Positions 1-61,449 of a DNA stretch of 64,000 nucleotides are shown one piece after another (position 1 is the stretch's first letter; each line of letters begins with the position of its first letter). A program made the position numbers and the translations under genes. The stretch is from Pseudonocardiales bacterium (GTDB lineage: Bacteria; Actinomycetota; Actinomycetes; Mycobacteriales; Pseudonocardiaceae): the NCBI GenBank assembly GCA_023252195.1, contig JAHEXI010000008.1, positions 96,980 through 160,979 of the forward strand, given 5' to 3'. Under the pieces are notes generated by a model that saw only the letters and a list, made by a program, of their open reading frames with translations, ran no database searches and had not been told where the DNA came from.

Positions 1-228
1 ACCTGCTACCTGCTGCTGTCCGTGGTGTTCGTGGCGGTGCTGGCCGCCTACGGTGGTGGTCTCGGTAACCGGTTCGGGCTCGCCGAGATCGCCATGCTGG
101 CCACCGCGACCTGGGTGCTGACGGTGTTGCTTGCGCAGGCTATGAGTCGTCGCGGCTACCGCGGGCCGGCTGAGGTGCTTCTTCGCCGCCTTACCTACGG
201 CGCACCGGTGACCGCGTCGCGACGCTAG
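1..228 (+). CDS. C-terminal fragment of a DUF418-like integral membrane protein (5' end outside window)
   Basis: The frame is open from base 1. Hydrophobic helices are followed by a ...[13 protein letters not shown] tail, typical of DUF418/YeiB-family C-termini. Confidence 0.45.
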
Positions 229-9062: not shown

Positions 9063-9126
9063 CTCCCGAGCTCCACAGCAGGGTTGCTCTGGCGGTCTCG
9101 GACAGCTCTGTAGTGGAGTTCGGGAG
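9063..9126. repeat. Family-A 64-bp palindromic element, copy A1
   Basis: CTCCCGAGCTCCACAGCAG...CTCTGTAGTGGAGTTCGGGAG form inverted arms. Same architecture as copies at 37781, 40279, 49128 and 57538. Confidence 0.75.
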
Positions 9127-9128
9127 CT

Positions 9129-10319
9129 GTGGAGCTGTGCAGTGACTGCACCAACTCGTCGGTCAGTGGATTTCGGCGCCACGCGGGTTATCGGGCGGCG
9201 TGGTCGCGAGCACAGCGTCCGAAGCCGACCAAGCTCTCGCGGCTACCAGGGTTGGCTGCGATGCCGCCGTCGGCGGCGGACCTGCCCCGGCGCGCGGCCG
9301 AGTTGGTCGCCAGCCAGTTCGACAAGGTCGCCGCGGCGGCCGAGGGATGTGACGTGCTGGTGGCGACCGGAGTGATGCCGACCGCGGCCAGCACGCGGTC
9401 GGTGGCCGAGAAACTGGGCATCCGCTCCGTGTCCGTGACCTTCCAGCAGCTCACCCTGCCGTCGCCGCACCACCCGCCGCTGGCGTATCCGGGCCGGCCG
9501 TTCCCGCCGGAGGTGACCGACAACCGGGTGCTGTGGGACCTAGACGCCCAGAACATCAACGCGCTGTTCGGTGCGGCGCTCAACACGAACCGGGCGTCGA
9601 TCGGCCTGCCACCGGTGGACAACGTCCGCGACTACGTCATCGGCGACCAGCCGTGGCTGGCGACGGATCCGACCCTGGATCCGTGGCAGGAGACGGCGGA
9701 CCTCGACGTCGTGCAGACCGGCGCGAGGATCCTGCCCGACGTTCGCCCACTCCCGGCTGAGCTGGTGGCGTTCCTGGACGCCGGCACACCACCGGTGTAC
9801 GTGGGCTTCGGCAGCATGGCAATGCAGACCCCGGCACTGCGCGCCCCGAAGGACATCGCCCGGGTGGCCATCGAGGCGATCCGCGCGCAGGGCCGCCGCG
9901 CACTCGTCTCCCGCGGCTGGGCCGACCTGGCCCTGATCGACGACCGGGACGACTGCTTCAGCGTCGGCGAGGTCAACCAGCAGGCACTGTTCACCCGGGT
10001 GGCCGCCGTCGTGCACCACGGCGGCGCGGGCACCACGACGACGGCCACCCGGGCCGGCGCACCTCAGGTGGTGGTACCCCAGGCGGCAGACCAGCCGTAC
10101 TGGGCCGGCCGGGTGGCCGACCTGGGCATCGGCACGGCACACGACGGTCCGACTCCGACCACCGAGTCCCTGTCAGCCGCGCTCAGGACGACCCTGACCC
10201 CCGAGACCCGTGCCCGAGCAACCGCCGTAGCCAGCACGATCCGCACCGACGGAGCAACGGTGGCCGCGACGCTGCTGCTCGACGCGATCAGCCGGGAAAA
10301 GCCGCCAGTGCCCGCGTGA
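9129..10319 (+). pseudogene. 5'-truncated GT1 glycosyltransferase, GtfB/vancomycin-group-like (N-terminal Rossmann half-start missing)
   Basis: From about residue 50 the protein tracks my recollection of GtfB-type GT1 enzymes (FDKVAAAAEGCDVLVATG...SVAEKLGI...IGLPPVDNV...VQTGA.ILPD.RPLP.EL.AFLDAG.PPVY.GFGS...HHGGAGTT...ADQPYWAGRV...). The first roughly 55-70 residues, including the MRVL..GSRGD motif, are absent. They are replaced by repeat A1-derived sequence. Confidence 0.6.
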
Positions 10320-32567: not shown

Positions 32568-32572
32568 ACCGA

Positions 32573-34677: not shown

Positions 34678-34720
34678 CGCCCGCAGGCTACCTCCACCCC
34701 GACATGGGGGCATATCGGGG

Positions 34721-37700: not shown

Positions 37701-37795
37701 AGTGCGGTGCCGGTAGACCGATGCGCAACCCTGGACAGCGCCAAGCCTCCCGCGGCGATCGTTCCTACCTCAGCTCTACCGTTCCCGAACTCCAC
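34721..37795 (-). CDS. Emb-family GT-C arabinosyltransferase, paralog 1
   Basis: About 1024 aa. First-loop DD motif [28 protein letters not shown], 13+ TM helices and a C-terminal carbohydrate-binding domain. The annotated GTG start lies inside repeat A2, so the true start is uncertain. Confidence 0.9.
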
Positions 37796-37844
37796 AGCAG
37801 AGCTGCCAGATCCTCCTCAGACAACTCTGTTGTGGAGTTCGGGA
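37781..37844. repeat. Family-A 64-bp palindromic element, copy A2
   Basis: GTTCCCGAACTCCACAGCAG-26 nt-CTGTTGTGGAGTTCGGGA lies between the helD stop and the Emb paralog 1 start. Confidence 0.85.
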
Positions 37845-37867
37845 TGCTGAGAGTACCGAGAGGCGCG

Positions 37868-40278: not shown

Positions 40279-40335
40279 CAACTCTACAGTTCCCGAACTC
40301 CACAGCTGCAGGCCGAGGGCCTGCCAGATCTCCTC
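40279..40335. repeat. Family-A element, partial copy A3 (left arm and internal segment only)
   Basis: CAACTCTACAGTTCCCGAACTCCACAGCTGCAG..CTGCCAGATCTCCTC shares the internal CTGCCAGATC(C)TCCTC with A2. No right arm was found. Confidence 0.6.
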
Positions 40336-42100: not shown

Positions 42101-45100
42101 TCAGCCGGTGTAGACGCGGCCGGTGTAGCGCTGCCCGATCAGCGTGGGAAGCCGGGTCCAGCCGGCCCGTCGCAGCGTCTCGACGTGCAAGTCCACCAGA
42201 TCCACGGGGTGGAGGTAGATCACCTCGTCGACGTGGCCCCAGCCCAGCGTGGGGGCCCCCGGCGGGGTGAGCTGGGAGGGCAGCTCGACGAACTTGGCGG
42301 TGCGGTCGACCTGCAGCAGCGTGCCGCCGTTGTCGGCGAACGTCGAGTTGTAGAGGATCGAGCCCTCCATGCCGTCCGCGGCCCGTAGCCGCAGCGCGGG
42401 AGGCTGCACCAGGCCGTCTCGCACGGCGATCTGCTGCTCGCAGGGCCACAGGGCGGCGGAAACCTGGTCGGCGAACACCGGCCGGCCAGCGATGATGTCG
42501 GTGACCGGGCGGGGCGCGGTCAGTCGGGGTTGCGCGATCGCCAGCCAACTGTTCGGACCGGCCACGCGGTCCTGGGCCACCACCCGCACCGCGGTCGGCG
42601 CGGCCAGACCGGCGTCGGCCAGCGCCACGGTCAGCTCGGTCCAGTCGGGTTTGTCCCCGACTGCGGGCAGCGGCACCGTACGCACCTGCCCCGGTGTGGC
42701 CGGATCGCCGGTGGTCGGATCGCCGGTTGTCACCTGCACGGCCAGCCACTGTTCCTGGTTGAGCTTGCCCCGCATCGGCACGGTCACCGAGGCATCGACA
42801 AGGTGACCGGGCAGCGGGTACCAGGGAGTCTGCAGGGACCCGGTGCCAGTGCCGCTGGGCACGTCGTCGTGCCACACCGTGCTGTTCGGCGGTGCGCGCA
42901 GCGGTACCGGCGTCGATTCCGGCAGCGGTGCTGCCCGCATGTCGCCGGTCAGCGCCGCGGTCCCGACCGCTGGCCCTAACCCTGGTTTAGCGGTGGTGAG
43001 TGCCTGCACCGCCGGGGCCAAGCCGCAGGTCCGGCCGGTGAGCGCTCGCAGGTTCATCAGCGTCACCGAGGTGCCCGGGTACTGACGCAGCGGCGCGACG
43101 GTGAACACCAGCAGCATCAGCACCACTCCGAGGCCGGTCGCGGTGACCAGCACGGCCCGGGTTGGTCCCAGCCGGCGCAGCCACCACCAGCCCACTGCGG
43201 CCACGGCCAGCCACAGCAGCGGGTTGCGCAACGCCAGTGGTCCCAACGACGGCGCGAGCAAGCTCTGGTCGTAGGGCCTGTCGATGAGCAGGTGGTTGCC
43301 GAAGGGCTGACCCCAGTCCGACAACGGGCGCCACAGGTTGGGCCCAGCGAAGGCGACCGACACGGCGGCCACCAGCCCGGCGCTGCCGATGGCCATCGTC
43401 GCGGCGCTAACCCGACGAGGTAGCGGTGATCGGATCAGCGCAGCGGCCAGCAGCACGGTGGCCGGCGCTGCGACGGCCTCGAAGTGGTTCACCCATTTCG
43501 TCGGAGTGAGCGCCAACACGGCCAGGCCCAGCGCGGTGATCGCCGCTGCCTCACCCAGTAGCCGGCCGCTGCGCCCTGCGGTGCCGGGACGCCGCCCCGC
43601 GCCCAGTGCCACGGCTAGCAGCACACCCAGCGTCAGCAACACCGGCAGCCGCTTGCCCCACGCCCCCCGCTCGTCGGGCACCAGCAGGTCGGCGTAGTGC
43701 AGGTACTCGTCGTACCAAGCGTATTGACGGTAGTACCAGCGGTGCACCGCAACCGATTCCAGCACGTCGCCCAGGGTGGCGTCGGCGAAAGCGACCGGGA
43801 TGACGATCGAGGCGGCGGCGCCCACCAACAGCACCGCCGTGACCCGGCTGCGCGCAGACTCGGCCCGCCACCACTGCCACAGCCACGGCAGGCACACCAC
43901 CAACGGTGCGGCGGCGACCAGACCGGTGGGCGACGCCGTCACGGTGAGCGCAGCGACGGCGACGGCGACGGCGAACACCCCCACCGACCGACGCCGGCGG
44001 GCCAACTCGGACAACACGAGCACCCCTGCGGTGCCCAGCGCGATCAGCGGTTCGGGACGCAGCGTCATGCCGTAGGGCAGCCACCACAGCAGGTGCGCGG
44101 CCGCCACCGCCCACGCCGCCAAGGATCGCTGGGCCACCCGGCCAAGCGCCGTTGCGACCAGCACCCGGAGCAGGGCGTAGGTCGCCAGCCCGTAGGCCAG
44201 CGGCAGCAACCGCATCCAGCCCAGGCTCCAGTCGCCGCCGAGGGCGCCCCAGGCCTGCATGACGTACTGACTGGCGACAAACGGGTTCTCGGTGACGTTG
44301 AACTGGTAGATGACATTGCCGAGGTAGCCCGACTGCATCGCGTTGCGAGCCATCAGCAGATACCAGGAGTCGTCGATGTTGACCGGTCCCGCTAACACCC
44401 AGAACAGCGACACCGCGACGACCACAGCATCGGCCCAGGACGGGCGCGGTCGGACCAGGCCGGGTCCGGCGCCGCGCCACCACCGCCAGGCCAGCACGAG
44501 CAGTGCCGCCAGCGCGAGACCGTGCGCGACCAGCAATGCCGTCTTGAGCAACGTGGGATGTGACTGGTACCGCGCGTCAGTGTGCAGCTGTACCGAAAGA
44601 CCGCTGGCCCCCACCGCGTCCGTCTGCAGCTCAGCGACCTGCGGCACCAGCAGATCCGTCCGCGTGCCGATGCCGGCACCGTCCCTGGTCACTCGCACGC
44701 CGCCCGCATCGGCGAGCACCTGGTAGGAGCAGGGGCCGCCGGGCAGCGCCTGACGTAGCACCTCGGCACCGGAGGCGGTGACCGTCACGACACCCTGGTC
44801 CGCGGTCACCACCAGGCCCTCGCCCGGGGCGGTGCCCACGTCGGCGGGCACCGTGCGCAGTGCCTCACCCCCACCCGGGCGGGCGTCCAGCGCTCGCAGC
44901 GTCGCGCACGGAACCGTCGCGGTGAGCTGCAACGGGCGGTAGGGCGACAGTGGCAGCACCGTCGAGCTGGGTTGCTGTCCAGCACGTGGCCAGCTCACCA
45001 CCGGATCGTCGGCGATCACCGGCGCGAGCATCACCAGGATCCCCAACACCCCGGTGACCAGCGCCAGCGCCGCGATCACCCATCCCAGCCGGCGTCGATC

Positions 45101-45130
45101 CCCGACGTCGCGGCCAGCGCGGATAGGCAC
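42101..45130 (-). CDS. Emb-family GT-C arabinosyltransferase, paralog 2
   Basis: 1009 aa. Has GPVNIDDSWYLLMARNA, LTPTKWVNHF and a C-terminal CBM-like domain. It is closest to paralog 3. Confidence 0.9.
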   Translation of the reverse strand: MPIRAGRDVGDRRRLGWVIAALALVTGVLGILVMLAPVIADDPVVSWPRAGQQPSSTVLPLSPYRPLQLTATVPCATLRALDARPGGGEALRTVPADVGTAPGEGLVVTADQGVVTVTASGAEVLRQALPGGPCSYQVLADAGGVRVTRDGAGIGTRTDLLVPQVAELQTDAVGASGLSVQLHTDARYQSHPTLLKTALLVAHGLALAALLVLAWRWWRGAGPGLVRPRPSWADAVVVAVSLFWVLAGPVNIDDSWYLLMARNAMQSGYLGNVIYQFNVTENPFVASQYVMQAWGALGGDWSLGWMRLLPLAYGLATYALLRVLVATALGRVAQRSLAAWAVAAAHLLWWLPYGMTLRPEPLIALGTAGVLVLSELARRRRSVGVFAVAVAVAALTVTASPTGLVAAAPLVVCLPWLWQWWRAESARSRVTAVLLVGAAASIVIPVAFADATLGDVLESVAVHRWYYRQYAWYDEYLHYADLLVPDERGAWGKRLPVLLTLGVLLAVALGAGRRPGTAGRSGRLLGEAAAITALGLAVLALTPTKWVNHFEAVAAPATVLLAAALIRSPLPRRVSAATMAIGSAGLVAAVSVAFAGPNLWRPLSDWGQPFGNHLLIDRPYDQSLLAPSLGPLALRNPLLWLAVAAVGWWWLRRLGPTRAVLVTATGLGVVLMLLVFTVAPLRQYPGTSVTLMNLRALTGRTCGLAPAVQALTTAKPGLGPAVGTAALTGDMRAAPLPESTPVPLRAPPNSTVWHDDVPSGTGTGSLQTPWYPLPGHLVDASVTVPMRGKLNQEQWLAVQVTTGDPTTGDPATPGQVRTVPLPAVGDKPDWTELTVALADAGLAAPTAVRVVAQDRVAGPNSWLAIAQPRLTAPRPVTDIIAGRPVFADQVSAALWPCEQQIAVRDGLVQPPALRLRAADGMEGSILYNSTFADNGGTLLQVDRTAKFVELPSQLTPPGAPTLGWGHVDEVIYLHPVDLVDLHVETLRRAGWTRLPTLIGQRYTGRVYTG

Positions 45131-45293: not shown

Positions 45294-46787
45294 GTGATTT
45301 CGGGGTCTGCGGTGGATGACGTCGTCCCGTTCGGTGTGGTCATCGCCATCATCAGCGTGGCTGGGCTGCTGGCGGTGTTGTCGAACCGGGTCAGCGAACG
45401 GATCCGGGTGCCGGCTCCAGCGATCTTCCTGGTAGCCGCCGCGGTTGCTTCGGACCTGGTACCGGCGCTGGGGCGGGTGCCCATTCTCACGGTGCAGCGG
45501 GTGGTCACCGTGATGCTGATCTTGTTGTTGTTCGACGGTGGTATGCACATCGGCTGGCGGCGGTTTCGCGCCGCTGGCGGCGGGGTGTTGTGGATCGGTG
45601 TGGTCGGCACTGTGGTCACCGCGGTGGGGGTGGCGGTGCTGGCGCACCTGGTGTTCGGGTTCGACTGGCGGGCCGGGCTGCTGCTGGGTGTCGCGGTGGC
45701 CCCTACTGACCCGGCCGTGGTGTTCTCGGTGTTGGGCCGCCGGGAGATCTCCGGCCGGTCGGGCACCCTGCTGGAGGGTGAGTCCGGGGTGAACGACCCG
45801 GTCGGTATCGCCGCGATGGCCGCGCTGCTGGCTGCCGGAACCGCCGGTGGCTGGCACGCCGTGGGCGCCGGGGTAGGCGAGTTCGCCCTGGAGATGGTCG
45901 TCGGTGCCGCGATCGGCATCGCGGCCGGGTACGCGTTGTCGGTGGCGATGCGCCGGGTACCACTGCCCAGCGGGGCGCTGTACCCGCTGCGGACCCTGTT
46001 GGGTGCCGGGGCGATCTACGGGCTGGCCAACCTGGCCCACGGGTCGGGGTTTCTCGCCGTGTTCGTCGCCGGAATCCTCGTCGGGGACCTGCGCGCCCCG
46101 TACAAGGCCGACATCGAACGGTTCCACTCGTCACTGGCCAGCTTGGCGGAAATCGTCGCGTTCGCCATGCTCGGCCTGACTGTGTCCCTGACTGGGCTGG
46201 CTCACGGCACCGCCTGGTGGGTCGGTCTGGCCTTGGCGGTGCTGCTGGCCCTGGTGGTGCGCCCGGTGCTGGTCGGGCTGCTCCTGCTGCCCATCAAGAT
46301 CAATAATGGTGAGCGGGTGTTCGTGATGTGGTCCGGGCTCAAAGGCGCGGTGCCTATCCTGCTGGGCACCTACATCCTGTCCGCCGGCGTACCAGGGGCC
46401 GACCGCCTGTACCAGATCGTGGTCGTCGTGGTGGCGTTCTCGGTGATCGTGCAGGGCGGCCTGGTGCCTACCGTGGCCCACCACACGGGAGTGCCCATGC
46501 GGGTCCTGCAACCCGAACCCTGGGCGCTGGGCATGCGTTTCCGCGACGAGCCCACCGGCTTGCACCGCTACGACGTCACCGCCGGCGCTCCCGCGGACGG
46601 CTGCACCATCGCCGACCTCGCGCTGGGCGAGGACACCTGGATCAGCATGATCAACCGGAACGGTGTCCTGGTACCCGTCCGCGGCGGCACCGTGCTGCAG
46701 GCCGGTGACGAGGTGCTGCTGCTGGCCGACCCGGACACCGACACCGACCCGCAGCCGCTGTTCACTCCGCGTCGCTCGACGTCGTGA
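45294..46787 (+). CDS. CPA1-family K+(Na+)/H+ antiporter with C-terminal RCK_C (TrkA-C) domain
   Basis: LLFDGGMH..., APTDPAVVFSVL, LLEGESGVNDPVGI, and C-terminal ...GGTVLQAGDEVLLLA. 497 aa. The stop codon lies within repeat B3. Confidence 0.85.
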   Translation: MISGSAVDDVVPFGVVIAIISVAGLLAVLSNRVSERIRVPAPAIFLVAAAVASDLVPALGRVPILTVQRVVTVMLILLLFDGGMHIGWRRFRAAGGGVLWIGVVGTVVTAVGVAVLAHLVFGFDWRAGLLLGVAVAPTDPAVVFSVLGRREISGRSGTLLEGESGVNDPVGIAAMAALLAAGTAGGWHAVGAGVGEFALEMVVGAAIGIAAGYALSVAMRRVPLPSGALYPLRTLLGAGAIYGLANLAHGSGFLAVFVAGILVGDLRAPYKADIERFHSSLASLAEIVAFAMLGLTVSLTGLAHGTAWWVGLALAVLLALVVRPVLVGLLLLPIKINNGERVFVMWSGLKGAVPILLGTYILSAGVPGADRLYQIVVVVVAFSVIVQGGLVPTVAHHTGVPMRVLQPEPWALGMRFRDEPTGLHRYDVTAGAPADGCTIADLALGEDTWISMINRNGVLVPVRGGTVLQAGDEVLLLADPDTDTDPQPLFTPRRSTS

Positions 46788-46844
46788 ACTCGACAGCACG
46801 GACGTTTCGGCGCCGAAAAATGTCGGTACCGTCGAGTTCACGAC
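46781..46844. repeat. Family-B 64-bp palindromic element, copy B3
   Basis: GTCGTGAACTCGACAGCACGGAC-18 nt-GTCGGTACCGTCGAGTTCACGAC lies between the convergent antiporter and vapC. Confidence 0.85.
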
Positions 46845-46865
46845 ATGGACCACCGGCGGCTGGGT

Positions 46866-47556: not shown

Positions 47557-50500
47557 TCAGTCGGTGGCGTTTCCGTGGTAGCTCTTGGCGGCGAGGGTGG
47601 GAAGGCGCGTCCAGCCGGCCCTGCGGACCGCGTGGACGTGCAGGTCGACCAGCCCGACGGGGTGGTCGTAGACGACCCGCTCGACCCGGCCCCAGGGCAA
47701 CGTGGGCGGCCCGCTGGGCACCAGCCGGGCGGGCATCCGCACGGCAGTGCCGGAGCGGCTCACCGGCACCTCAGTGCCGCCCCGGTGCAGCTCGAACCCG
47801 AGATCGAGGAAGCCCCGGCCGAAATCCTCGTCGCTAAGCAGCAGCACCTGGGGGGCACGGGCGATGCCATGATCGACGCCGACCTGGTCGAGGCAGGGCA
47901 ACAGCGCCGCGGTGAGCTGGTCGACGTACACCGGCCGGCTGGCGATAAACGTCGTCAGCGGACGCCACGTGGCCAGCCGCGGCTGGCCTACCGCAAGCCA
48001 GCTGTCGGCATCGGTCTCCATCCAGTCGCGGATCACCACCCGCACGCTCGACGGCCGCTGCTTGCCGAGCCGGTCCAGGGCAACGGCTGCTTGGTGCCAC
48101 TGGGTCCTGGGCACGGCCGGGTCCGGCCGCAGCGATGCGCTGCCCGCCACGGCGGGGTTGCGCCCAGCGGCGGTGGCGTACTCCAGGGTCAGCTGCTGGG
48201 CGGCTCGAGCGCCGAGCAGCGGGACCAGCAGGGTGCTGCCACCATCGGGTGGCAGCGCGAACCACGGCGTGACGAGCAAGCCCGCCGGGCTCGTCAGTGA
48301 GCTCGTGTCCGGGTCGCTGCGCAGGTCGGTGTCGACGGCGTCGTGCCAGACCAGCGTGCCCGGATTCGGCGCGGGCACTGGCTCGGGTAACGGCCGGTTC
48401 GCGGCAGCGGCGAACCCACCCTCGGTGATCGCCGATCCGACCGGCACCGGTTGTGCCGGTATGTCGACTAGGACCTGTGCGTAGTCGGCCAGTGAGCACG
48501 GTTGGCCTTGGACCGCCCGAACCGCAGACAGGGCCACCGACCAGCCCGGATACTGCCGCAACGGCGCCCACCAGAAGACCACGATGATCATCACCACCAT
48601 CGCCGTCGAGCCGGTCAGCAACACCGCTCGGTCGGGAGTCAGTGCCGAGTCCCGATCGCGGCGCCGCCGCCACCACATCCATCCGCCTGCGGCCACCGCG
48701 ACCGCCACCCAGACCAGCGGGTTTGCCAGCTGCACGGGGCCCAGCTTCGGGCGCATGCCCACCAGGTCGGGGTGGTCCGCGGACGCGGTGAGGTGGTTGC
48801 CGAAGGGCTGGCCGCGGTCGGAATAGGGCCGCCACAGGTTGGGCCCGGCGAAACTCCAGGACACCGCACCGATCATCAGCGCTGTCCCCACCGTGGCCGC
48901 GAGGACGCTGGCACGATGGCGCCGCAGACCAGCCTGCACCGCGGCCAACAGCGGGGAGCGCAGCAGCGCGGCGGCGAGCAACACCATGGGCGCGGCCGCC
49001 GCCGCCCCGAAGTGGTTGACGAACTTCGTCGGCGTCGGAGCCAGTAGCGCCAAGGCCAACGCCGAGCACCCCGCACTGCTCACCAGCAACCGCCGCACCG
49101 GATCGTCGCGGTCCCCGTTGCCTGACTCTGCGCTTCCCGAACTGCACAGCAGTGCTGTCCGCAGCCGGGTGAACAGCGCTGCTGTGGAGCTCGGGAAGCG
49201 CAGCGCACGTGAGCAGTTCAGAGCGACGACTAGCAGGACGGCGATTGTGAGCACCACAGGGGCTCGGCGGGCCCACTGGCTGGAATCCTCGAAGCTCAGG
49301 ATCGTCTTGTAGTGGACGTTCTCCTGGTACCAGGAGAACGTCTGGTAGTACCACCGGTGCACTGCGGCGGACTCGAGCACGTCGCCGAGCGTCGCGTCGG
49401 CGAATCCCACCAGCACCAGGCTGGTGCTCGCGGCGGCCAGTACCAGGACCGCAGCCACCCGCGCCGCGGCGCGCTGTGCGCGCAGCCACCGCCACAGCCA
49501 CGGCAGGGCCAGCACCAGCGGTGCGATGGCGACCAGCCCGGACGGGGAGACCGACATCGCTAGCGCGGCGGTGGCGGTGGCGGCGGCGAGCGCGCCGACC
49601 GAGCGGCGTCGCCGGGCCAGCTCCGCCAGCAGCAGCGTCGCAGCGGCCAGCAGCACGATCAGCGGTTCGGGACGCAGCGTCATTCCGTAGGGCAGCCACC
49701 ACAGCAGGTAGGCCACCAGCAGCGCCCAGGTAGCCCGGCTGGTGTCCAGCTCGCGACCGAAACCCGCAACGAGCAGCAGGCGCAGCAGCAGCCAGGTGAC
49801 CAGCCCGTAGGCCAGCGGCACCAGCCGCATCCACGCCAGGCCCCACCCGCCGAGCGAACCCCACAGCTGCAGCACGTACTGGCTGGCCACGAAGGGGTTC
49901 TCGGTAACGTTGAACATGTAGATCGCATTGCCGACCGACCCTGAGGCGTTGGCACCGCGGGCCATCTGCATGTACCAGGAGTCGTCGAAGTTCGTCGGAG
50001 CCAGCAGCACCCACATCGCCGAGACGACGACTAGCACGGCGTCAGCGACGTGTAGGCGAAGTCGCGCGGGTGCAGCGGTTATCGGCTGGGCGCCCCACCA
50101 CCGCCAGGCCAACCCGAGCAGCATCAGCAGGGCCGCGGCGCAGGTCACTAGCAGTCCGGTCTTCAGCGCTGTCGGGGTGGATTCATAGCGGGCATCGGTG
50201 TGTAGCGACACCGCCAACCCCGACGCCGCCGGCTGGCCGTCCAGCTCGGTGGTCAGCTCGCTGACCTCCGGTACCTGCACCGACGCAGAGCCGCGTCGCA
50301 GCCCGTCGCGCAGTACCCGCACGCCGCCGGCGTCGGCCAATACCCGGTAGGTACACCCGCCGTCCGGCAGCACCTCGCGCAGCACCGTCCGGCCCGAGGC
50401 GGTCACCTGCACCGTGCCGCCGTGGACCGCGACGACCAGACCCTGGCTGAGCTGGCCCGGCTTGCCGGCGGTGGCGGGCAGGGTGCGCAGCGCGTCGCCG

Positions 50501-50757
50501 CCGCCGCGTTGACGGTCCAGCGCGGACAGCGCGGCGCACGGCACCCGGGCGGTCAGGCTCACCGGTCGGTAGGGCACCAGCGGCAGCACCGTGGAGCGCG
50601 CCGGCTGGCCGGCCGGTGGCCAGCTGACCACCGGGTCCTGGGCGGTCACCGGGGCCAGCAGCACTCCGATCGCCGCGACCAGGGTCAGCGCGGCCAGCCC
50701 GGCGAGCACGCCCGCTCGGGAGGTCACGGAGCGTTGCACGTCGGCGGCCGCAAGCAC
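47557..50757 (-). CDS. Emb-family GT-C arabinosyltransferase, paralog 3, carrying an in-frame repeat-element insertion
   Basis: 1066 aa. Has APTNFDDSWYMQMARGA, PTPTKFVNHF and an intact C-terminal domain. It has about 29 extra residues relative to paralog 2 at the position of repeat A4. Confidence 0.9.
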   Translation of the reverse strand: MLAAADVQRSVTSRAGVLAGLAALTLVAAIGVLLAPVTAQDPVVSWPPAGQPARSTVLPLVPYRPVSLTARVPCAALSALDRQRGGGDALRTLPATAGKPGQLSQGLVVAVHGGTVQVTASGRTVLREVLPDGGCTYRVLADAGGVRVLRDGLRRGSASVQVPEVSELTTELDGQPAASGLAVSLHTDARYESTPTALKTGLLVTCAAALLMLLGLAWRWWGAQPITAAPARLRLHVADAVLVVVSAMWVLLAPTNFDDSWYMQMARGANASGSVGNAIYMFNVTENPFVASQYVLQLWGSLGGWGLAWMRLVPLAYGLVTWLLLRLLLVAGFGRELDTSRATWALLVAYLLWWLPYGMTLRPEPLIVLLAAATLLLAELARRRRSVGALAAATATAALAMSVSPSGLVAIAPLVLALPWLWRWLRAQRAAARVAAVLVLAAASTSLVLVGFADATLGDVLESAAVHRWYYQTFSWYQENVHYKTILSFEDSSQWARRAPVVLTIAVLLVVALNCSRALRFPSSTAALFTRLRTALLCSSGSAESGNGDRDDPVRRLLVSSAGCSALALALLAPTPTKFVNHFGAAAAAPMVLLAAALLRSPLLAAVQAGLRRHRASVLAATVGTALMIGAVSWSFAGPNLWRPYSDRGQPFGNHLTASADHPDLVGMRPKLGPVQLANPLVWVAVAVAAGGWMWWRRRRDRDSALTPDRAVLLTGSTAMVVMIIVVFWWAPLRQYPGWSVALSAVRAVQGQPCSLADYAQVLVDIPAQPVPVGSAITEGGFAAAANRPLPEPVPAPNPGTLVWHDAVDTDLRSDPDTSSLTSPAGLLVTPWFALPPDGGSTLLVPLLGARAAQQLTLEYATAAGRNPAVAGSASLRPDPAVPRTQWHQAAVALDRLGKQRPSSVRVVIRDWMETDADSWLAVGQPRLATWRPLTTFIASRPVYVDQLTAALLPCLDQVGVDHGIARAPQVLLLSDEDFGRGFLDLGFELHRGGTEVPVSRSGTAVRMPARLVPSGPPTLPWGRVERVVYDHPVGLVDLHVHAVRRAGWTRLPTLAAKSYHGNATD
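49128..49203. repeat. Family-A palindromic element, copy A4, located inside the Emb paralog 3 coding sequence
   Basis: CTGCGCTTCCCGAACTGCACAGCAGTGCTG-16 nt-CAGCGCTGCTGTGGAGCTCGGGAAGCGCAG is translated in-frame as LRFPSSTAALFTRLRTALLCSSGSA. Confidence 0.85.
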
Positions 50758-51475: not shown

Positions 51476-54400
51476 TCAACGGCCCAGCTGAGAGATCTCG
51501 GCGGTTTGACCCCCACTGCGTAGCGGTCCTGGAGACCACCAGCCGCTTCGCACGGCGGTGCCGGTCTGCAGCACAGGTGCCTCAGCGTCGGGTACTCGCG
51601 GCTGGATCACCATGAGCTTGCCCCAGTCGGTGTCCCAGTTCTCTTTGAGGTAGGTCGGCACCTCCTGCTGGGTGGCCAGGATCTGCAGCCAGCCGATCGG
51701 GCCACCCGCATCTGCCGCTGACCAGCTCTTGCTGTCGTTGGCCAGCATCTTGTCGGGGAGCAGCCGATATTGGGGTATCTCGGCGATGCCATTGCGGATC
51801 GCGAACGGGCGCACACAGGGGTGCACGAAGCCCACCGGCCAGTCCAAGAACACCGGTGGCGTCGGGGCCACCAGGTCGGTCAGCGAGCTCAGCACCGGTA
51901 CCCGGGGCGCGGAGAACGCGAGCCACCCGTCATCGGTGACGTCGGCGTCGGTGGCGACCAACCGCACGGCGTCCGCCCCGGCAGAGGCCCGACCGGCCAA
52001 TCCGAGGCGGTAGTCCCGCCATCCCGGCCCATCGGCAGTGGCGCGCCCGCCGATCTCCATGTGGTCGACGACGCGGAAGCCGCGGTCGGTGCGGCGGGCG
52101 AACTCGGCGACCAGCGGTGTGGTGGCTGACAGTCGACCCGCGACGGAGACCACCACCGGCGCGGTGCCTTGGCGGGCCGCGGCGGGCAGGGCGTACCAGG
52201 TGGAGCGCAGGATGCCGGTGCCGGGAGTGTCGGGGGAGAAGCTGCTCCAGATCGGGATCTCGGGACCACCGAGCCCGATCGGCGGTTTGTCAACGGGGTT
52301 GCTCCCGTCGTCGCCCGGCTTGGGTATGCGGTCGCCCCTGGCACCCTGATTGTCCGCCCGGTCGTTGGTCCCGGAGCCGGTGAGCTGGGAGGGCGGACTG
52401 GTTGGCAGTGCCTGCTCTAGCGGGGACCGGTTGGTTTCGAAGCCGCGTTGCAGCGGGATGTCGGCGAGCAGCGTTGTGCGCAACGGGCGCAGCGCACCGG
52501 CACGCCGGTCAGCCTCGACCAACACCGCATCGGTGAGGTTGCAACTGTGCCCGGTTATCTCAGCGAAGTTGGCTGCGCCCATGCTGTAGCCGTGGCGCTG
52601 CTTGACTATCGCCTTGGCCATGGCGCCGACCTCGGCGAGCACCAGCAGGCCGCAGAACACCGCCAGCGGGGCTGACCCGATCAGCAGGGCGCGGCGCCGC
52701 CCATTGCGCCGTTGCGGCTGTGGTGGCCCAGGTGGCGGCACAGCGCCCGGCTCGTGCCGCAATCCCTCGATCACCGCGATCAGGCCAGCCAGCACGGCGC
52801 CCACGATCAGCAGCGTGCTGGCTTGGATGCCATGCACCGAGGGGGGCTTGTCGTACCAGGGCACCCCGTACTGCGATACGTACCACGGTGCGTTGGGTCC
52901 GGTCGCCGACATCGCCAGGATCACCAGCAGGCCCGACAGGAACCACCACCGGTTGCGCGCTGAGCGCAGCACGCTGGAGCTGGCGGTCAGCGCGGTCAGC
53001 GCGGCCAGCGCGGCACCGATCGAGGCGAACGCCCCGAAGTGGTGCGTCCACTTCGTCGGGGTCAACGCCAGCAGCACCAGCGACGCTCCCGCGGTGCCGA
53101 TCAGCCGGCGGCTCGGGCCCAGGCCGGCGCCCGGGATGCGGCCCCGGCGCAACAGCACCACCCCGGTAGTGCCCAGGCACAGCAGCAACAGCAGGACCGG
53201 GAAGCGACGGGCCAAGGCACCGTCGGGCAGGTTGCTGAACAGCTCCTCGTAGCGCATCGGCTCCTGGAACCAGGACAGGTTGGGACCGATCTCGGTGCGG
53301 ATCCGGGAGGCTTCCAGCACCCCGGCCAGCGTCTGGTCGGCGAAGCACACCACGAGCACCAGCAGCCCGGCACCGAGGATCGGCCCAAGCACCGCGGCGC
53401 GGCCGGAAACCGTGATGTGTTGGCGCACCAGCCGCACCAGCGGCCGCAGCGACACCAGGAACGGTGCGATCGCGATGAAACCGGTCGGTGTCGCGGCGAC
53501 GGTGAACGCTGCCGCCAGTAGCGCCAACGCCAGCGGCAGCACCCGGCGGGTGGCTACCGCGCGCTCCACTCCGCACAGCGCGAGCAGCGAACCGATGGCC
53601 ACCACCGGCTCCAGGCGCAGCCCGTTGTTGTAGGGCAGCCAGAAGGCCAGGAACACCGCGGCGGCGGCCCATCCGGCGGCGGCGCTGCGGCGGACCTCCC
53701 GACCCAGTCGCGGCATCACCTCACGGCTGATCAGCATCCAGCTCACCCCGCCCATCGCGAAGGAGGGCAGCCGCAGCCACGGTGGCACCGTGCTGATCTG
53801 AGACCACAGCGCATACAGCTCGTAGGGCCAACTGAACGGTGCCTCGGGGGCGTTGAACCATCGGTAGTAGTTGCCGATGTAGCCCATCTCCGCACGAGTG
53901 CGGATCATCGTCAGGATGTAGCCGTCGTCGGAGGTGATCCCGCCGATGACCACCCAGACGGCGAGCACCGCGAGTACCGCGGCGTCCCGTCCGGTGGGTC
54001 GCCACCAGCCCGAGGGAAGTACTCGGGGAGCCCGGCGCCCGATCCGCCGGTCCAGTCGATGCATCAGGATCAGACTGACCAGCACGGCCAGTACGGCGGC
54101 CGCGATGGCAGCGAGCTTGATCGGGTGCGGGACGGATTGGAACCGGGTGTCCGCGGTGATCCGCACTGCCAGCCCACGGACCGGGTCGCGTTGGTCGATC
54201 AGGGCCGAGTAGATACCGGTCACCTGCGGCCGGACGTCCTGGTCGACCTTGACGAACCGCAGGGCGCCAGCCGACGCCGTGGTGCCCCGGGCGTCCGAGG
54301 AGACCTGGATCATGCACTGCCGCGGAGACGGCGGGATGGTGCTCAACAGGACGTTGCCCAGCGCCTGGCCCCGGCTGATCAGGGTCAACTTCCCGGCGTC

Positions 54401-54799
54401 GACCTGCAGCACCATCCCGACCGCGGCACCGTCGGTCGACCCGGGCGGGGTGGTGGCCAGCAGCGAGGCAGGCTGCGGCGACCGCGCATCCAACGAGACT
54501 GCCGCAGCGCACGGGATCGTGGCGGTCATGTTCTGCGGCTGGTAGGTGACCAGCGGCGCGTTGACCGGCGCGAGGTCTCCCGAGCGTGGCCAGGTGATCA
54601 CGGTGGTGTCCTGGATCACCGGCAGCAGCGGCACCGCAATGGCGAGCAGAGCTCCGAGCAGGCCGAAGAATGCCGCGGCGAACCCGAGTAGCCGGGAGCC
54701 GCGGTTGCGCTTGTTGCCAGTGTCGGCGGTCGGATCGGTAGCGTCGCCGCCAGTACTCGAGCGGCGGCGCGAGATCTCGATGTGCCCAGAGGTCAGCAC
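51476..54799 (-). CDS. Emb-family GT-C arabinosyltransferase, paralog 4 (longest; EmbC-like length)
   Basis: 1107 aa. Has GGITSDDGYILTMIRTRA, LTPTKWTHHF and a C-terminal CBM-like domain. Confidence 0.9.
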   Translation of the reverse strand: MLTSGHIEISRRRSSTGGDATDPTADTGNKRNRGSRLLGFAAAFFGLLGALLAIAVPLLPVIQDTTVITWPRSGDLAPVNAPLVTYQPQNMTATIPCAAAVSLDARSPQPASLLATTPPGSTDGAAVGMVLQVDAGKLTLISRGQALGNVLLSTIPPSPRQCMIQVSSDARGTTASAGALRFVKVDQDVRPQVTGIYSALIDQRDPVRGLAVRITADTRFQSVPHPIKLAAIAAAVLAVLVSLILMHRLDRRIGRRAPRVLPSGWWRPTGRDAAVLAVLAVWVVIGGITSDDGYILTMIRTRAEMGYIGNYYRWFNAPEAPFSWPYELYALWSQISTVPPWLRLPSFAMGGVSWMLISREVMPRLGREVRRSAAAGWAAAAVFLAFWLPYNNGLRLEPVVAIGSLLALCGVERAVATRRVLPLALALLAAAFTVAATPTGFIAIAPFLVSLRPLVRLVRQHITVSGRAAVLGPILGAGLLVLVVCFADQTLAGVLEASRIRTEIGPNLSWFQEPMRYEELFSNLPDGALARRFPVLLLLLCLGTTGVVLLRRGRIPGAGLGPSRRLIGTAGASLVLLALTPTKWTHHFGAFASIGAALAALTALTASSSVLRSARNRWWFLSGLLVILAMSATGPNAPWYVSQYGVPWYDKPPSVHGIQASTLLIVGAVLAGLIAVIEGLRHEPGAVPPPGPPQPQRRNGRRRALLIGSAPLAVFCGLLVLAEVGAMAKAIVKQRHGYSMGAANFAEITGHSCNLTDAVLVEADRRAGALRPLRTTLLADIPLQRGFETNRSPLEQALPTSPPSQLTGSGTNDRADNQGARGDRIPKPGDDGSNPVDKPPIGLGGPEIPIWSSFSPDTPGTGILRSTWYALPAAARQGTAPVVVSVAGRLSATTPLVAEFARRTDRGFRVVDHMEIGGRATADGPGWRDYRLGLAGRASAGADAVRLVATDADVTDDGWLAFSAPRVPVLSSLTDLVAPTPPVFLDWPVGFVHPCVRPFAIRNGIAEIPQYRLLPDKMLANDSKSWSAADAGGPIGWLQILATQQEVPTYLKENWDTDWGKLMVIQPRVPDAEAPVLQTGTAVRSGWWSPGPLRSGGQTAEISQLGR

Positions 54800-56595: not shown

Positions 56596-57456
56596 TCATA
56601 CCCAGTAGGAGACTCGGGCCCGGTAGTTGCGCAGGATCAGTAGTGCTGCCGCCCACCCCACCACAGTGATGGCCAAGGTCACCACCCAGTGCCGGGGTTC
56701 GAACGACTGACCGATCATCGGGCGTCGCAGGATCTCGACGAAGTGCAGGAACGGGTTGAGCTCGGCCAGCCGGGCCCGCTCCGCTCCCGGACCGCCCTTG
56801 CTGATCAGATCCTGGTAGTTCCAGACGATCGGCGTCATGAAGAACATCAGGGTGACGACGCTGGTGGTCACCGGGGGGATGTCGCGGTAACGGGTCGCAA
56901 TGATCCCGATCAGGATCGCCACCCAGGCCCCGTTGAGCACGATCACCGCCAATGCCGGCAGCGCCATCAGGCTGCCCCACCCCAGGTGCGTTCGGAAAAT
57001 CACCACCAGGGCCGCCCAGACCAGCACGTTATGCCCGAAGAACAGCAGTTGTCGCCAGACCAGCCGGAACACATGCACACTCAGCGGCGCGGGCAGATGC
57101 TTGATCAGGCCCTCGTTGCGGATGAAGACCTCGGCGCCTTCGTTGATGCAGCTCGCCATGAACTGCCAGATAATCAGCCCGACGGCCAGGTAGGGCAGGA
57201 AGAACGCGATCGGTTGACCGAACAGTGCCGCATAGAGCAGCCCCATACCCAGCGCCTGGACTCCCAGGCTGATCGTGATCCACAACGGTCCGATCACCGA
57301 GCGCCGGTAACCCTGCCTGATGTCCTGCCAGCCCAGATGGCCCCACAGCCGACGTTGCTGCCAGCCGGCCCGCAGATCACCGAATGCCCGAGACCAGCTC
57401 CGGGATGACAGCGCCCGGTCCGCGGTGATCTCCGGTGCCGCTGCGGTGTACTGCAT
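56596..57456 (-). CDS. rfbD: ABC-2 type transporter permease (Wzm/RfbD-type)
   Basis: ATG 57456 gives 286 aa with 6 TM helices (..YRRSVIGPLWITISL..). The longer ORF (to 58050) reads through repeat A5 and is rejected. Confidence 0.85.
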   Translation of the reverse strand: MQYTAAAPEITADRALSSRSWSRAFGDLRAGWQQRRLWGHLGWQDIRQGYRRSVIGPLWITISLGVQALGMGLLYAALFGQPIAFFLPYLAVGLIIWQFMASCINEGAEVFIRNEGLIKHLPAPLSVHVFRLVWRQLLFFGHNVLVWAALVVIFRTHLGWGSLMALPALAVIVLNGAWVAILIGIIATRYRDIPPVTTSVVTLMFFMTPIVWNYQDLISKGGPGAERARLAELNPFLHFVEILRRPMIGQSFEPRHWVVTLAITVVGWAAALLILRNYRARVSYWV

Positions 57457-57537
57457 GGTCCGCGAGGGTACCCGTGCGGTCTCCGGACCCCCGGCCTGCG
57501 GGTGCGCCAGCCGCTGCCCGCGCCCGGTCCACCAAGC

Positions 57538-57601
57538 TTCCCGAACTCCACAGCGGAGCTGTCCGACGTTGATCAAACAGCGCTGCTGTGGAGTTCGGGA
57601 C
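57538..57601. repeat. Family-A 64-bp palindromic element, copy A5
   Basis: CTTCCCGAACTCCACAGCGGAGCTGTCC-11 nt-ACAGCGCTGCTGTGGAGTTCGGGAC lies 82 nt upstream of the rfbD start. Confidence 0.85.
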
Positions 57602-57649
57602 ACCCAGAGTTCGGGGGACGCAGGGCACGCGAGTGCGGAGGGGGGAACT

Positions 57650-61300: not shown

Positions 61301-61384
61301 ATGCCTGAGTTGAGATTGCCGCTCGACGCGGGGTCTTCGGCAGCGTCGCCCCGAGATCGTCGGGGTGCGCCGAAGACGGTCGCT

Positions 61385-61449
61385 GCCGTGAACTCGACGG
61401 TACCGACATTTCGCTGGGCGAAAAGGTACGTATTGTCGAGTTCACGGCA
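61385..61449. repeat. Family-B 65-bp palindromic element, copy B4
   Basis: GCCGTGAACTCGACGGTACCGAC-19 nt-GTACGTATTGTCGAGTTCACGGC lies in the divergent spacer between the cassette and the CocE-like gene. Confidence 0.8.

What the first reader, a model, noticed from the sequence alone, without database searches (positions are those of the whole stretch)
49080..49210. Palindromic repeat inserted in-frame inside an Emb arabinosyltransferase gene without breaking the ORF
Copy A4 lies within Emb paralog 3 (47557-50757). The ORF stays open through it and the downstream C-terminal domain is intact.

Between the conserved ..VVAL.. helix and the LAPTPTKFVNHF motif, paralog 3 has 61 residues. Paralog 2 has 32 (GAGRRPGTAGRSGRLLGEAAAITALGLAVLAL), and paralogs 1 and 4 are similarly short. 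The extra segment includes LRFPSSTAALFTRLRTALLCSSGSA, which is the direct translation of the 76-bp palindrome.

The insertion falls in a short, Arg-rich loop between TM helices that is probably cytoplasmic. This is a rare case of a REP/MITE-like element being exapted, or at least tolerated, as coding sequence in an essential-pathway paralog. A strong mRNA hairpin in mid-gene could also modulate translation or transcript stability.
Basis: partly seen in the sequence, partly recalled or inferred. Interest (0 to 1): 0.7.

Follow-up and report, generated by a model that had tools for sequence, protein, structure and literature searches.

The report
Palindromic repeat fossilised inside Emb gene
A roughly 80-base hairpin-forming "junk" repeat landed in frame in a floppy cytoplasmic loop of a cell-wall arabinosyltransferase gene, has been inherited as 25-28 extra amino acids by a whole group of soil actinobacteria and was cleanly lost again in one lineage: a real, well-documented example of a phenomenon already known from Rickettsia and other bacteria.

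Summary
Window 49128-49203 is a 76-nt palindrome (31-nt arms, 90% complementary). It belongs to a dispersed repeat family with 4 full copies and 1 half copy in the window and 27 exact hits in metagenomes.

It lies in frame inside a 1066-aa Emb-type arabinosyltransferase gene (47557-50757, minus strand) and encodes residues 519-543, LRFPSSTAALFTRLRTALLCSSGSA. These residues sit in the loop between TM10 and TM11, which is cytoplasmic by helix parity.

The allele is not strain-specific. All 14 ortholog clusters at 77% identity or above carry the insert. All orthologs at 76% or below lack it and have shorter loops.

One sublineage nested deep in the insert-bearing clade lost 75 nt between TGCA microhomologies at the hairpin base. 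This deletion appears in three independent assemblies.

The insert evolves as coding sequence under relaxed purifying selection. It still folds at -47 to -61 kcal/mol. Evidence for selection on the hairpin itself is weak.

Two extensions emerged:
- A different palindrome family sits in frame in the same loop of a 70%-identical ortholog.
- The same element, with the same hairpin loop and reading frame, sits inside an HpnG-like phosphorylase gene.

The best reading is a tolerated passenger in a permissive loop, analogous to Rickettsia RPEs and intragenic REPs. It is a new member of a known kind.

The parts
47557..50757 (-). Emb-type arabinosyltransferase, paralog 3 (1066 aa), the host gene
   Evidence: Open ORF. 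Pfam Arabino_trans_N, Arabinose_trans and Arabino_trans_C all hit. PDB EmbA/B/C sequence hits. AF2 model pLDDT 80.9; Foldseek TM-scores 0.69-0.74 to 7bvc/7bvf/7bve. DD motif D258 D259 is invariant in 78 homologs.
49124..49206 (-). Full extent (~83 nt) of the inserted palindromic element, including the outer short stem (GCWCT ... AGAGY) seen in family members
   Evidence: Comparison of 27 metagenome copies and their flanks with the 11-ortholog alignment A3.
49128..49158 (.). Palindrome arm 1 (3' arm in mRNA sense)
   Evidence: Inverted repeat I1: 31 nt, 90% complementary.
49173..49203 (.). Palindrome arm 2 (5' arm in mRNA sense)
   Evidence: Inverted repeat I1. RNA fold of -65.3 kcal/mol, z = -5.18.
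49129..49203 (-). 25 codons (residues 519-543, LRFPSSTAALFTRLRTALLCSSGSA). This is exactly the 75-nt segment missing in the deletion allele.
   Evidence: Translation. Empty-site alignment with L001.
49210..49275 (-). Coding region of predicted TM10 (residues 495-516), upstream boundary of the loop
   Evidence: AF2 secondary structure H495-516; hydropathy.
49042..49101 (-). Coding region of predicted TM11 (residues 553-572), followed by the conserved PTPTKFVNHF motif
   Evidence: AF2 H553-572. Invariant P576 K578 H582 F583.
9063..9135 (.). Intergenic copy of the same repeat family
   Evidence: No coding-frame signature across it.
37782..37854 (.). Intergenic copy of the same family, just upstream of Emb paralog 1
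57538..57610 (.). Intergenic copy, upstream of the true start of an ABC-2 permease gene. The long ORF 56596-58050 is an over-extension.
40290..40308 (+). Half copy (one arm) of the family

Best explanation
**What happened (inferred).** An ~83-nt member of a dispersed, hairpin-forming repeat family of a Pseudonocardiaceae lineage inserted once into the DNA encoding the cytoplasmic TM10-TM11 loop of one Emb arabinosyltransferase paralog. The consensus is GCTCT-n4-YT-CCCGAACTCCACAGCAGAGCTGT-[~12-nt loop]-ACAGCTCTGCTGTGGAGTTCGGG-AR-n4-AGAGC. The insertion occurred in the common ancestor of a group of species.

**Why it was tolerated.** Its length is a multiple of three and the frame used (..LPNSTAAL..TALLWSSG..) has no stop codon. 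It therefore added 25-28 residues without breaking the ORF. The loop is naturally hypervariable in length and sequence, so the addition was tolerated.

**What is shown since then.**
- It has been inherited vertically.
- It evolves as coding sequence under relaxed purifying selection.
- It still forms a strong hairpin, mostly through inertia.
- One sublineage removed it by a 75-nt in-frame deletion between TGCA direct repeats that the hairpin base brings together. This points to replication slippage, not transposase excision.

**Function (inferred).** It is most likely a tolerated passenger that has become ordinary loop-coding sequence, not a required functional module.
For: **Family membership and intergenic habit**
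- There are 4 full copies and 1 half copy in the window and 27 exact two-arm matches in metagenome contigs.
- None of about 30 other copies has a continuous coding frame across it. The Emb copy has GC3 of 0.88 on both sides.

**Single old insertion**
- The insert is present in all ortholog clusters at 77% identity or above: 14 clusters at 90% clustering, plus 10 genome loci.
- It is absent from all orthologs at 76% or below, whose loops are 41-62 aa.

**Secondary loss**
- The empty-site protein P0005 (= L001) is nested in the insert-bearing clade with bootstraps of 97/98/98/94/100%.
- Three independent assemblies carry the same junction, while a sister above 90% identity (P0278) keeps the insert.
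- The TGCA repeats lie exactly 75 nt apart, and a footprint of the element's end (TGCAGCGTC) remains.

**Permissive loop**
- Orthologs show tandem duplications in this loop.
- An unrelated palindrome family lies in frame in the same loop.

**Coding-type evolution**
- Fitch steps per site in the insert are 0.54/0.48/1.08 against 0.34/0.20/1.02 for the gene.
- The excess at position 3 has P = 0.005. Non-synonymous positions are faster than in the gene, P = 0.0025.
- GC3 is 0.64 in the insert against 0.91 in the gene, which betrays a foreign origin.

**Structure**
- The insert is predicted as loop plus a low-confidence helix (pLDDT ~52) between confident TM10 and TM11.
Against: - The insert has survived without a single frameshift or stop in 14 clusters. 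Non-synonymous positions change at half the rate of its own third positions, so the peptide is not evolving neutrally. Some function of the peptide cannot be excluded.
- The hairpin is still -47 to -61 kcal/mol in all 11 orthologs. One stem pair shows a compensated change, C-G to A-U, in 5 vs 5 sequences. A/T-ending codons in the stem change somewhat less than elsewhere (P = 0.075). A nucleic-acid-level role is therefore not ruled out.
- The mobilisation mechanism of the family is unknown. No target-site duplication was seen, and no transposase could be looked for in 64 kb.
Confidence: 0.75

Rival explanations
1. Exaptation of the peptide. The repeat-encoded segment (..PNSTAALFTRLRTALLxSSG..) has become a functional part of the enzyme. 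One possibility is an amphipathic helix lying on the cytoplasmic face of the membrane or contacting a partner such as AcpM.
For: - Non-synonymous positions are constrained relative to third positions: 0.54/0.48 vs 1.08 steps per site, P = 0.005.
- The motif PNSTAAL..LL.SSG is conserved across 14 clusters.
- AF2 predicts a helix at residues 525-538.
- The same peptide is retained in an unrelated HpnG-like phosphorylase family.
- AcpM binds the cytoplasmic face of Emb proteins (PMC7305291).
Against: - A natural 25-codon deletion allele persists in three assemblies of an otherwise conserved gene.
- All orthologs at 76% identity or below, and the three paralogs, do without the segment.
- The helix has pLDDT of only ~52.
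- Non-synonymous positions evolve about 1.9 times faster than in the rest of the gene.
- The surrounding loop is hypervariable.
Confidence: 0.12
2. Nucleic-acid-level function. The mid-gene hairpin is kept because it acts as RNA or DNA. It might pause ribosomes during membrane insertion of TM10/TM11, stabilise or process the mRNA, or bind a REP-recognising protein.
For: - The hairpin is retained at -47 to -61 kcal/mol in all orthologs.
- 86.5% of stem cells are still paired, against 28-48% for slid registers, and one pair is compensated.
- GC3 of the insert has not ameliorated: 0.64 vs 0.91.
Against: - Third positions in the stem evolve at the gene-wide third-position rate: 0.94-1.08 vs 1.02.
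- The outer stem is decaying, with pairs 5-10 broken in 2-8 of 11 sequences.
- Pairing and the covariation score are only marginally above the column shuffle (7/500 and 16/500). Related sequences are known to inflate this test.
- The count of pairs with double changes is below the shuffle mean.
- The A/T third-site test is not significant, P = 0.075.
- No T-run follows the stem, so it is not a canonical intrinsic terminator.
- The deletion allele exists.
Confidence: 0.1
3. Artefact or pseudogene. The insert is an assembly error, or the gene is decaying and the open frame is accidental.
For: None beyond the prior that repeats cause misassemblies. Two MAGs have contig ends near the repeat.
Against: - The same insert at the same site appears in 10 independent genome loci and 14 protein clusters from NCBI, JGI, ENA and Logan data.
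- The gene shows strong purifying selection.
- Catalytic and structural motifs are invariant.
- The full Emb fold is predicted.
Confidence: 0.02

Closest known systems
Rickettsia palindromic elements (RPE; Ogata et al. 2000, as cited in PMC3184786 and PMC3733652)
   Same: A dispersed palindromic repeat is inserted in frame into protein-coding genes. It adds a few dozen residues without destroying the host protein and is inherited across species. Copies exist both inside and between genes.
   Different: The sequence is unrelated and the host is a high-GC actinobacterium, not an AT-rich alphaproteobacterium. The element is shorter (~83 nt against ~105-146 nt for RPE; table in PMC3184786). Genic copies are the exception here: none of about 30 further copies sampled by DNA is genic, and one further real gene was found by the profile search. 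RPE-1 is commonly genic (from my own knowledge).
Intragenic REPs of the GTAG/CGTC super-families (Di Nocera et al. 2013, PMC3733652)
   Same: These are palindromic repeats that are mostly intergenic, with occasional in-frame copies or dimers encoding 20-30 residues. Several species show them in real genes.
   Different: REPs are 20-40 bp units, often in dimers, with a GTAG or CGTC tag, and many are linked to RAYT transposases. Here a single 76-83-nt hairpin has 31-nt arms. A CTAC/GTAG-like tetranucleotide appears in only some copies. No RAYT link could be examined. That survey does not mention actinobacteria.
Bacterial MITEs carrying open reading frames (Delihas 2007/2008/2011; PMC2229807, PMC3184786)
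   Same: These are small non-autonomous repeats that fold into long stem-loops and are found fused in frame to genes, either internally or at 3' ends. The third palindrome family in the window likewise supplies the last 13 codons of Emb paralog 1.
   Different: No target-site duplication and no parent IS were identified for this family.
Mycobacterial EmbA/EmbB/EmbC arabinosyltransferases (PDB 7bvc, 7bvf, 7bve, 7bwr)
   Same: The host protein shares the three Pfam domains, the 15 TM helices, the DD motif and the overall fold, with TM-scores of 0.69-0.74.
   Different: Sequence identity is only 22-24%. The host is from a Pseudonocardiaceae MAG with four tandem paralogs. The mycobacterial proteins have a short Arg/Lys-rich TM10-TM11 loop without any repeat-derived segment (alignments).

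Membership tests
Emb arabinosyltransferase (GT-C, Pfam PF04602/PF17689/PF14896) | All three Pfam domains above gathering score | tested here: met
   Arabinose_trans 190 bits, Arabino_trans_C 66.7 bits and Arabino_trans_N 59.7 bits, each against a cut-off of 25.
Emb arabinosyltransferase (GT-C, Pfam PF04602/PF17689/PF14896) | 15 transmembrane helices with periplasmic N- and C-terminal domains, and an Emb fold | tested here: met
   15 hydrophobic cores. AF2 pTM 0.84. Foldseek hits EmbA/B/C at E = 1e-47 to 1e-40 with TM-scores of 0.69-0.74. Published topology in PMC7305291.
Emb arabinosyltransferase (GT-C, Pfam PF04602/PF17689/PF14896) | Catalytic Asp-Asp motif in the first periplasmic loop | tested here: met
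   D258 and D259 are invariant in 78 aligned homologs and paralogs.
Dispersed palindromic repeat family (generic REP/MITE-like) | Multiple dispersed copies that share sequence, beyond chance | tested here: met
   9 arm matches in the window against 0.39 expected. 27 exact two-arm matches in metagenome contigs.
Dispersed palindromic repeat family (generic REP/MITE-like) | Stable stem-loop, with copies predominantly intergenic | tested here: met
   -65 kcal/mol, z = -5.2. None of about 30 other copies has a coding frame running through it.
REP sensu stricto (RAYT-mobilised) | Unit size of 20-40 bp, often in inverted dimers | tested here: not met
   Single hairpin of 76-83 nt with 31-nt arms. No dimers in the window.
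REP sensu stricto (RAYT-mobilised) | Conserved GTAG or CGTC tag at one end | tested here: inconclusive
   CTAC/GTAG-like tetranucleotides flank some copies (37782, 40292, L022, L026, Emb copy of L007). Others have CTGC/GCAG or neither.
REP sensu stricto (RAYT-mobilised) | Cognate RAYT (Y1 transposase) gene flanked by the repeats | not testable with these tools
One hit shows the element truncating an IS605-type tnpB (P0123). That is an insertion into an IS, not evidence of a parent.
MITE | Target-site duplication flanking terminal inverted repeats | tested here: inconclusive
   No consistent direct repeat flanks the 27 copies. The TGCA at both ends of the Emb copy is part of the palindrome itself.
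MITE | Parent IS with matching termini | not tested
   No search was possible within the remaining caps.
Rickettsia palindromic elements (RPE) | In-frame insertion in ORFs with preservation of the host protein | tested here: met
   Shown for the Emb gene and the HpnG-like phosphorylase.
Rickettsia palindromic elements (RPE) | Sequence membership in RPE-1..8 of Rickettsia | not tested
   No RPE sequences were compared. An Rfam scan at gathering thresholds found nothing in the window. Host phylum and base composition make homology implausible. This is a functional analogy only.

The most novel reading that the evidence does not exclude
The DNA encoding the TM10-TM11 cytoplasmic loop of this Emb orthogroup would be a preferred landing site for hairpin repeats. 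Two unrelated palindrome families have entered it in different lineages.

One particular subfamily, with hairpin loop GTTTACCCGGCTGCGGAC encoding ..LFTRLRTALL.., would have been co-opted. It would act either as an amphipathic cytoplasmic helix or as a mid-ORF RNA hairpin that tunes translation and membrane insertion. This would explain why the same variant, in the same frame and orientation, is preserved in two unrelated membrane-pathway genes: Emb, and the HpnG-like gene of the hopanoid cluster.
Probability: 0.12. Interest if true: 0.7.

Novelty: new member of a known kind. Interest (0 to 1): 0.5.

Why it matters
**Reach of the phenomenon.** This extends the 'selfish palindromes in protein-coding genes' phenomenon to high-GC Actinobacteria and to a polytopic membrane enzyme of the ethambutol-target family. 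The phenomenon is best known from Rickettsia RPEs and proteobacterial REPs.

**A complete natural history from sequence data alone:**
- one insertion;
- vertical inheritance through speciation;
- gradual conversion into ordinary coding sequence;
- removal by hairpin-guided microhomology deletion.

**A practical use.** It marks the TM10-TM11 cytoplasmic loop of Emb proteins as a site that accepts 25-40 foreign residues. This could guide tag or reporter insertion.

**An annotation caveat.** Intragenic repeats break assemblies, and repeat copies inflate ORF predictions. Most profile hits were short, spurious ORFs.

Tried and rejected
- **Rfam scan of the window at gathering thresholds:** no family matched.
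- **Word-indexed protein search** with the three concatenated reading-frame peptides of the element: no candidates. Frames 2 and 3 were therefore never surveyed.
An earlier nucleotide NJ tree gave unusable support values after rooting. I redid the analysis with my own distances and split counting.
- **Test for nucleotide-level constraint** at A/T-ending codons in the insert: a trend only, P = 0.075. I rejected it as evidence.
- **Covariation in the stem:** one compensated pair. The shuffle controls are marginal and known to be inflated by relatedness. I do not accept this as proof of a selected structure.
- **Target-site duplications** around 27 copies: none convincing.
- **Candidate second genic copy in L034/L038:** an open frame runs across an element between two small genes. 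It looks like a chance read-through of an intergenic copy, and I did not pursue it.
- **Long loop of ortholog P0099:** this is a 33-nt tandem duplication, not a palindrome.
- **Intrinsic terminator reading:** rejected, because no T-run follows the stem.
Full report
**1. The observation**

The sequence at 49128-49203 is an imperfect palindrome. Its arms, 49128-49158 and 49173-49203, are 31 nt long and 90% complementary, and they are separated by 14 nt. Folded as RNA in the sense of the gene it reaches -65.3 kcal/mol. Shuffled sequences average -44 kcal/mol, giving z = -5.2.

It belongs to a repeat family. Full copies lie at 9063-9135, 37782-37854, 49134-49206 and 57538-57610, and a half copy lies at 40292-40308. 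The 17-nt arm core CCCGAACTCCACAGCAG matches 9 times with up to 3 mismatches, against 0.39 expected by chance.

The copy at 49.1 kb lies inside the minus-strand ORF 47557-50757, which is open for 1066 codons. That ORF carries all three Pfam domains of Emb arabinosyltransferases.

Aligned with the three other Emb paralogs of the window (34721-37795, 42101-45130, 51476-54799), paralog 3 has 29 extra residues exactly here. Residues 519-543, LRFPSSTAALFTRLRTALLCSSGSA, are the direct translation of the palindrome. Every factual statement in the finding is confirmed.

The three other full copies are intergenic. The long ORF 56596-58050 that covers the copy at 57.5 kb is an upstream over-extension of an ABC-2 permease gene.

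**2. Origin and orthologs**

The single genome-collection scan returned 14 loci, all from Pseudonocardiaceae or Pseudonocardiales metagenome-assembled genomes. They are 68-94% identical at the protein level.

A nucleotide alignment of the loop region shows three states:
- Ten loci, 82-94% identical, carry the palindrome at the same place and in the same frame.
- The two most distant loci (L006, L011; 68-70%) lack it.
- One close ortholog (L001; 90% protein and 92% nucleotide identity) has a clean gap of exactly 75 nt.

A search of the large protein collection gave the same picture with more data. Fourteen cluster representatives carry ..LPNSTAAL..LL.SSG... These are P0001-P0004, P0006-P0013, P0094 and P0105, all at 77% identity or above. 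All orthologs at 76% or below lack it. Their loops are 41-62 residues between my anchors, with a mode of 47, against 71-76 with the insert. One further ortholog with a long loop is discussed in section 6.

That is not observed.

**3. One insertion, one later deletion**

I built a neighbour-joining tree from 980 gap-free protein columns, which exclude the insert. It places the empty-site protein P0005 (= L001) as sister of the insert-bearing P0003, with 97% bootstrap.

This pair sits inside successively larger insert-bearing groups with 98, 98, 94 and 100% support. The insert-free orthologs fall outside. The empty site is therefore derived.

The deletion is also real. Its 90% cluster holds three full-length sequences from three sources (NCBI, JGI, Logan) with the identical junction ..LNRAPAASGSDG... 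It also holds a close relative from a 1.38-Mb contig (P0278) that keeps the insert.

At the DNA level, the filled allele of L007 has TGCA at the left base of the stem and TGCA again exactly 75 nt downstream at the right base. The empty allele reads CACC-TGCA-GCGTCAGG. It therefore retains the right-hand tip of the element (TGCAGAGTC became TGCAGCGTC).

This is what slipped-strand deletion across an extruded hairpin produces. It is not a transposase-type precise excision of the whole ~83-nt element.

The same kind of event is seen in the second host gene described in section 7. There, 51 nt of the element's interior were lost between GCAG microhomologies.

**4. What the element is**

The single metagenome scan with both 15-nt arm cores found 27 loci, nearly all with the same 60-nt spacing. 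With their flanks the copies define this consensus:

GCTCT-n4-YT-CCCGAACTCCACAGCAGAGCTGT-(about 12 variable nt)-ACAGCTCTGCTGTGGAGTTCGGG-AR-n4-AGAGC

That is about 83 nt, made of a short outer stem, an irregular segment and a long inner stem. The Emb copy matches this from GCACT to AGAGT. The element-derived peptide is therefore about 27-28 residues (ALRLPNSTAALFTRLRTALLWSSGSAE in L007).

I found no consistent target-site duplication, and a GTAG-like tag in only some copies. Rfam has no matching family.

A frame-specific GC test asks whether a single reading frame with coding-type composition runs through a copy. About 30 other copies all fail it. The Emb copy passes with GC3 of 0.88 on both sides. 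The family is thus overwhelmingly intergenic and the Emb copy is an exception.

I file the element as a REP/MITE-like palindromic repeat of unknown mobilisation. It does not meet the size criterion of classical REPs.

**5. How the insert evolves**

I counted Fitch parsimony steps on the ortholog tree for 10 insert-bearing taxa.

| Region | Position 1 | Position 2 | Position 3 |
|---|---|---|---|
| 3' half of the gene | 0.34 | 0.20 | 1.02 |
| Palindrome | 0.54 | 0.48 | 1.08 |
| Well-paired core of the stem | 0.375 | 0.25 | 0.94 |

Third positions therefore change at the gene-wide rate. Non-synonymous positions change at about half that rate; the excess of steps at position 3 has P = 0.005. They are still about 1.9 times faster than in the rest of the gene, P = 0.0025. 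This is the signature of translated sequence under relaxed purifying selection.

GC3 of the insert is 0.64 against 0.91 for the gene, a remnant of its non-coding origin.

The hairpin is still strong in every ortholog, at -47 to -61 kcal/mol, and 86.5% of stem cells are paired. However, the outer six pairs are decaying. Only one pair shows a compensated change, and the controls are marginal.

A test of whether rare A/T-ending codons are unusually conserved in the stem gave P = 0.075. I conclude that survival of the hairpin is mostly inertia at 6-17% divergence. Selection on the stem is neither shown nor excluded.

**6. Where it sits in the protein**

Hydropathy gives 15 hydrophobic cores. An AlphaFold2 model built on 78 homologs has mean pLDDT 80.9 and pTM 0.84. 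It matches the cryo-EM structures of EmbA, EmbB and EmbC with TM-scores of 0.69-0.74.

Published Emb structures have 15 TM helices. A periplasmic domain lies between TMH1 and TMH2, another lies after TMH15, and AcpM is bound on the cytoplasmic face (PMC7305291).

Counting back from the periplasmic C-terminal domain, the loop between helix 10 (residues 495-516) and helix 11 (553-572) is cytoplasmic. Its Arg-rich flanks agree with that.

The model shows the insert as a coil followed by a helix at 525-538, with pLDDT of about 52. The following residues 540-549 fall below 50.

In orthologs this loop varies from 41 to 86 residues. It contains tandem duplications, for example a 33-nt duplication in L043.

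Most strikingly, a 70%-identical ortholog (P0033, locus L042) carries a different palindrome in frame in the same loop. Its arms are 2109-2153 and 2162-2206, with core ACCCCGACATGGAGACATATCGGGGT, and it encodes ..NPDMETYRGRSGVFDPDMSPCRGE... P0053 has a half copy.

That second family also occurs in the window at 34698-34761, where it supplies the last 13 codons and the stop of Emb paralog 1. The loop is therefore a repeatedly used, permissive site.

**7. Other genes with the same element**

I built a profile of the reading frame used in Emb from six window-derived translations. I searched it against 1.84 billion cluster representatives and obtained 33 hits.

Most are short ORFs without domains, that is, spurious calls over intergenic copies.

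One is a real gene. P0122 is a PNP_UDP_1 phosphorylase (HpnG-like) fused to LytB. It sits next to a radical-SAM/DUF3463 gene, and its homologue P0155 sits next to a squalene-hopene cyclase gene.

P0122 carries SALRFPNSTAGLFTRLRTALLWSSGAAE inside the phosphorylase domain. Its DNA is the same element, with the same hairpin-loop sequence, orientation and frame as the Emb copy.

Its homologs show every stage: intact, strongly diverged (for example PSSTSALFPRPPTTLMSNS), partly deleted and absent.

Another hit is an IS605-type TnpB truncated by the element.

In-frame capture by this family therefore happened at least twice. It remains rare.

**8. Comparison with what is known**

In-frame palindromic repeats in genes were first described for Rickettsia (RPE). 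They have since been found for REPs of several proteobacteria, Opitutus and Thauera, and for various MITEs (PMC3733652; PMC3184786).

The present case works like these. It is not a sequence member of any of them, and it fails the size criterion for classical REPs. I found no report for Actinobacteria in the searchable library, which is not proof of absence.

I classify it as a new member of a known kind.

**9. Verdict**

The reading 'tolerated passenger in a permissive cytoplasmic loop' is well supported. The readings 'exapted' and 'regulatory hairpin' remain open but unsupported.

Interest is moderate. It is a clean natural history of an intragenic palindrome in a medically relevant enzyme family, with recurrent use of the same loop. 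The principle is established.

Noticed in passing
window 34698-34761: A third palindromic repeat family (CCCGATATGGGGACATGTCGGGG ... CCCCGATATGCCCCCATGTCGGGG) overlaps the 3' end of Emb paralog 1. Its first arm and loop encode the last 13 residues ([13 protein letters not shown]) and contain the stop codon. The same family sits in frame in the TM10-TM11 loop of a distant paralog-3 ortholog (L042 2109-2206), with a half copy in L044 2118-2140.
   Followed up: partly
window 31448-31556, 32483-32587, 46776-46860, 61369-61449: A second, unrelated palindromic repeat family with core CGTGAACTCGACAGCACCGAC has at least five copies. One lies in the spacer just downstream of Emb paralog 3. All appear intergenic.
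   Followed up: no
window 34721-54799: Four Emb-type arabinosyltransferase paralogs lie on the same strand within 20 kb. They are 28-55% identical to each other. Paralogs 2 and 3 are the closest pair, at 55%.
   Followed up: partly
L045 186-1310 (P0122); homologs P0154-P0181: A hopanoid-cluster phosphorylase (PNP_UDP_1, HpnG-like, fused to a LytB segment) carries the same repeat. The frame and hairpin loop match the Emb copy, and the repeat lies inside its catalytic domain. Homologs show intact, decayed, partly deleted (P0155: 51-nt interior deletion between GCAG repeats) and empty states.
   Followed up: partly
P0123 (248 aa), residues 161-192: An IS605-type TnpB (OrfB_IS605 domain at residues 16-130) is truncated by a copy of the repeat. 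The predicted protein runs out of TnpB into the element.
   Followed up: no
P0123, P0132, P0150, P0151 (profile-search hits): Several spurious ORFs that read through copies of the repeat share further conserved translated strings. SFQDRI lies upstream of the element in P0132, P0150 and P0151, and DLETTV/DLETAV lies downstream in all four, preceded by ADRTSHTR in P0123 and P0132. This suggests that the repeat is sometimes part of a larger conserved non-coding unit.
   Followed up: no
L034 2905-3519 (also L038): A 204-aa open frame runs through an element copy between what look like two small genes. The second resembles a small alpha/beta domain protein starting at MHAVFVEVD. This could be a chance read-through or a fusion.
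   Followed up: partly
L009/L010 (MAG BP_311) and L008/L012 (MAG bin.88): In two MAGs the Emb paralog-3 gene is split over two contigs that end or start within a few hundred bases of the palindrome. Where the pieces overlap they differ in sequence. The repeat or strain mixtures therefore break assemblies here.
   Followed up: no
window 56596-58050: The longest ORF for the ABC-2 type permease gene over-extends upstream through the repeat copy at 57538-57610. The likely true start is near the MQYTAAAPE methionine. This is a typical annotation hazard in high-GC genomes.
   Followed up: partly
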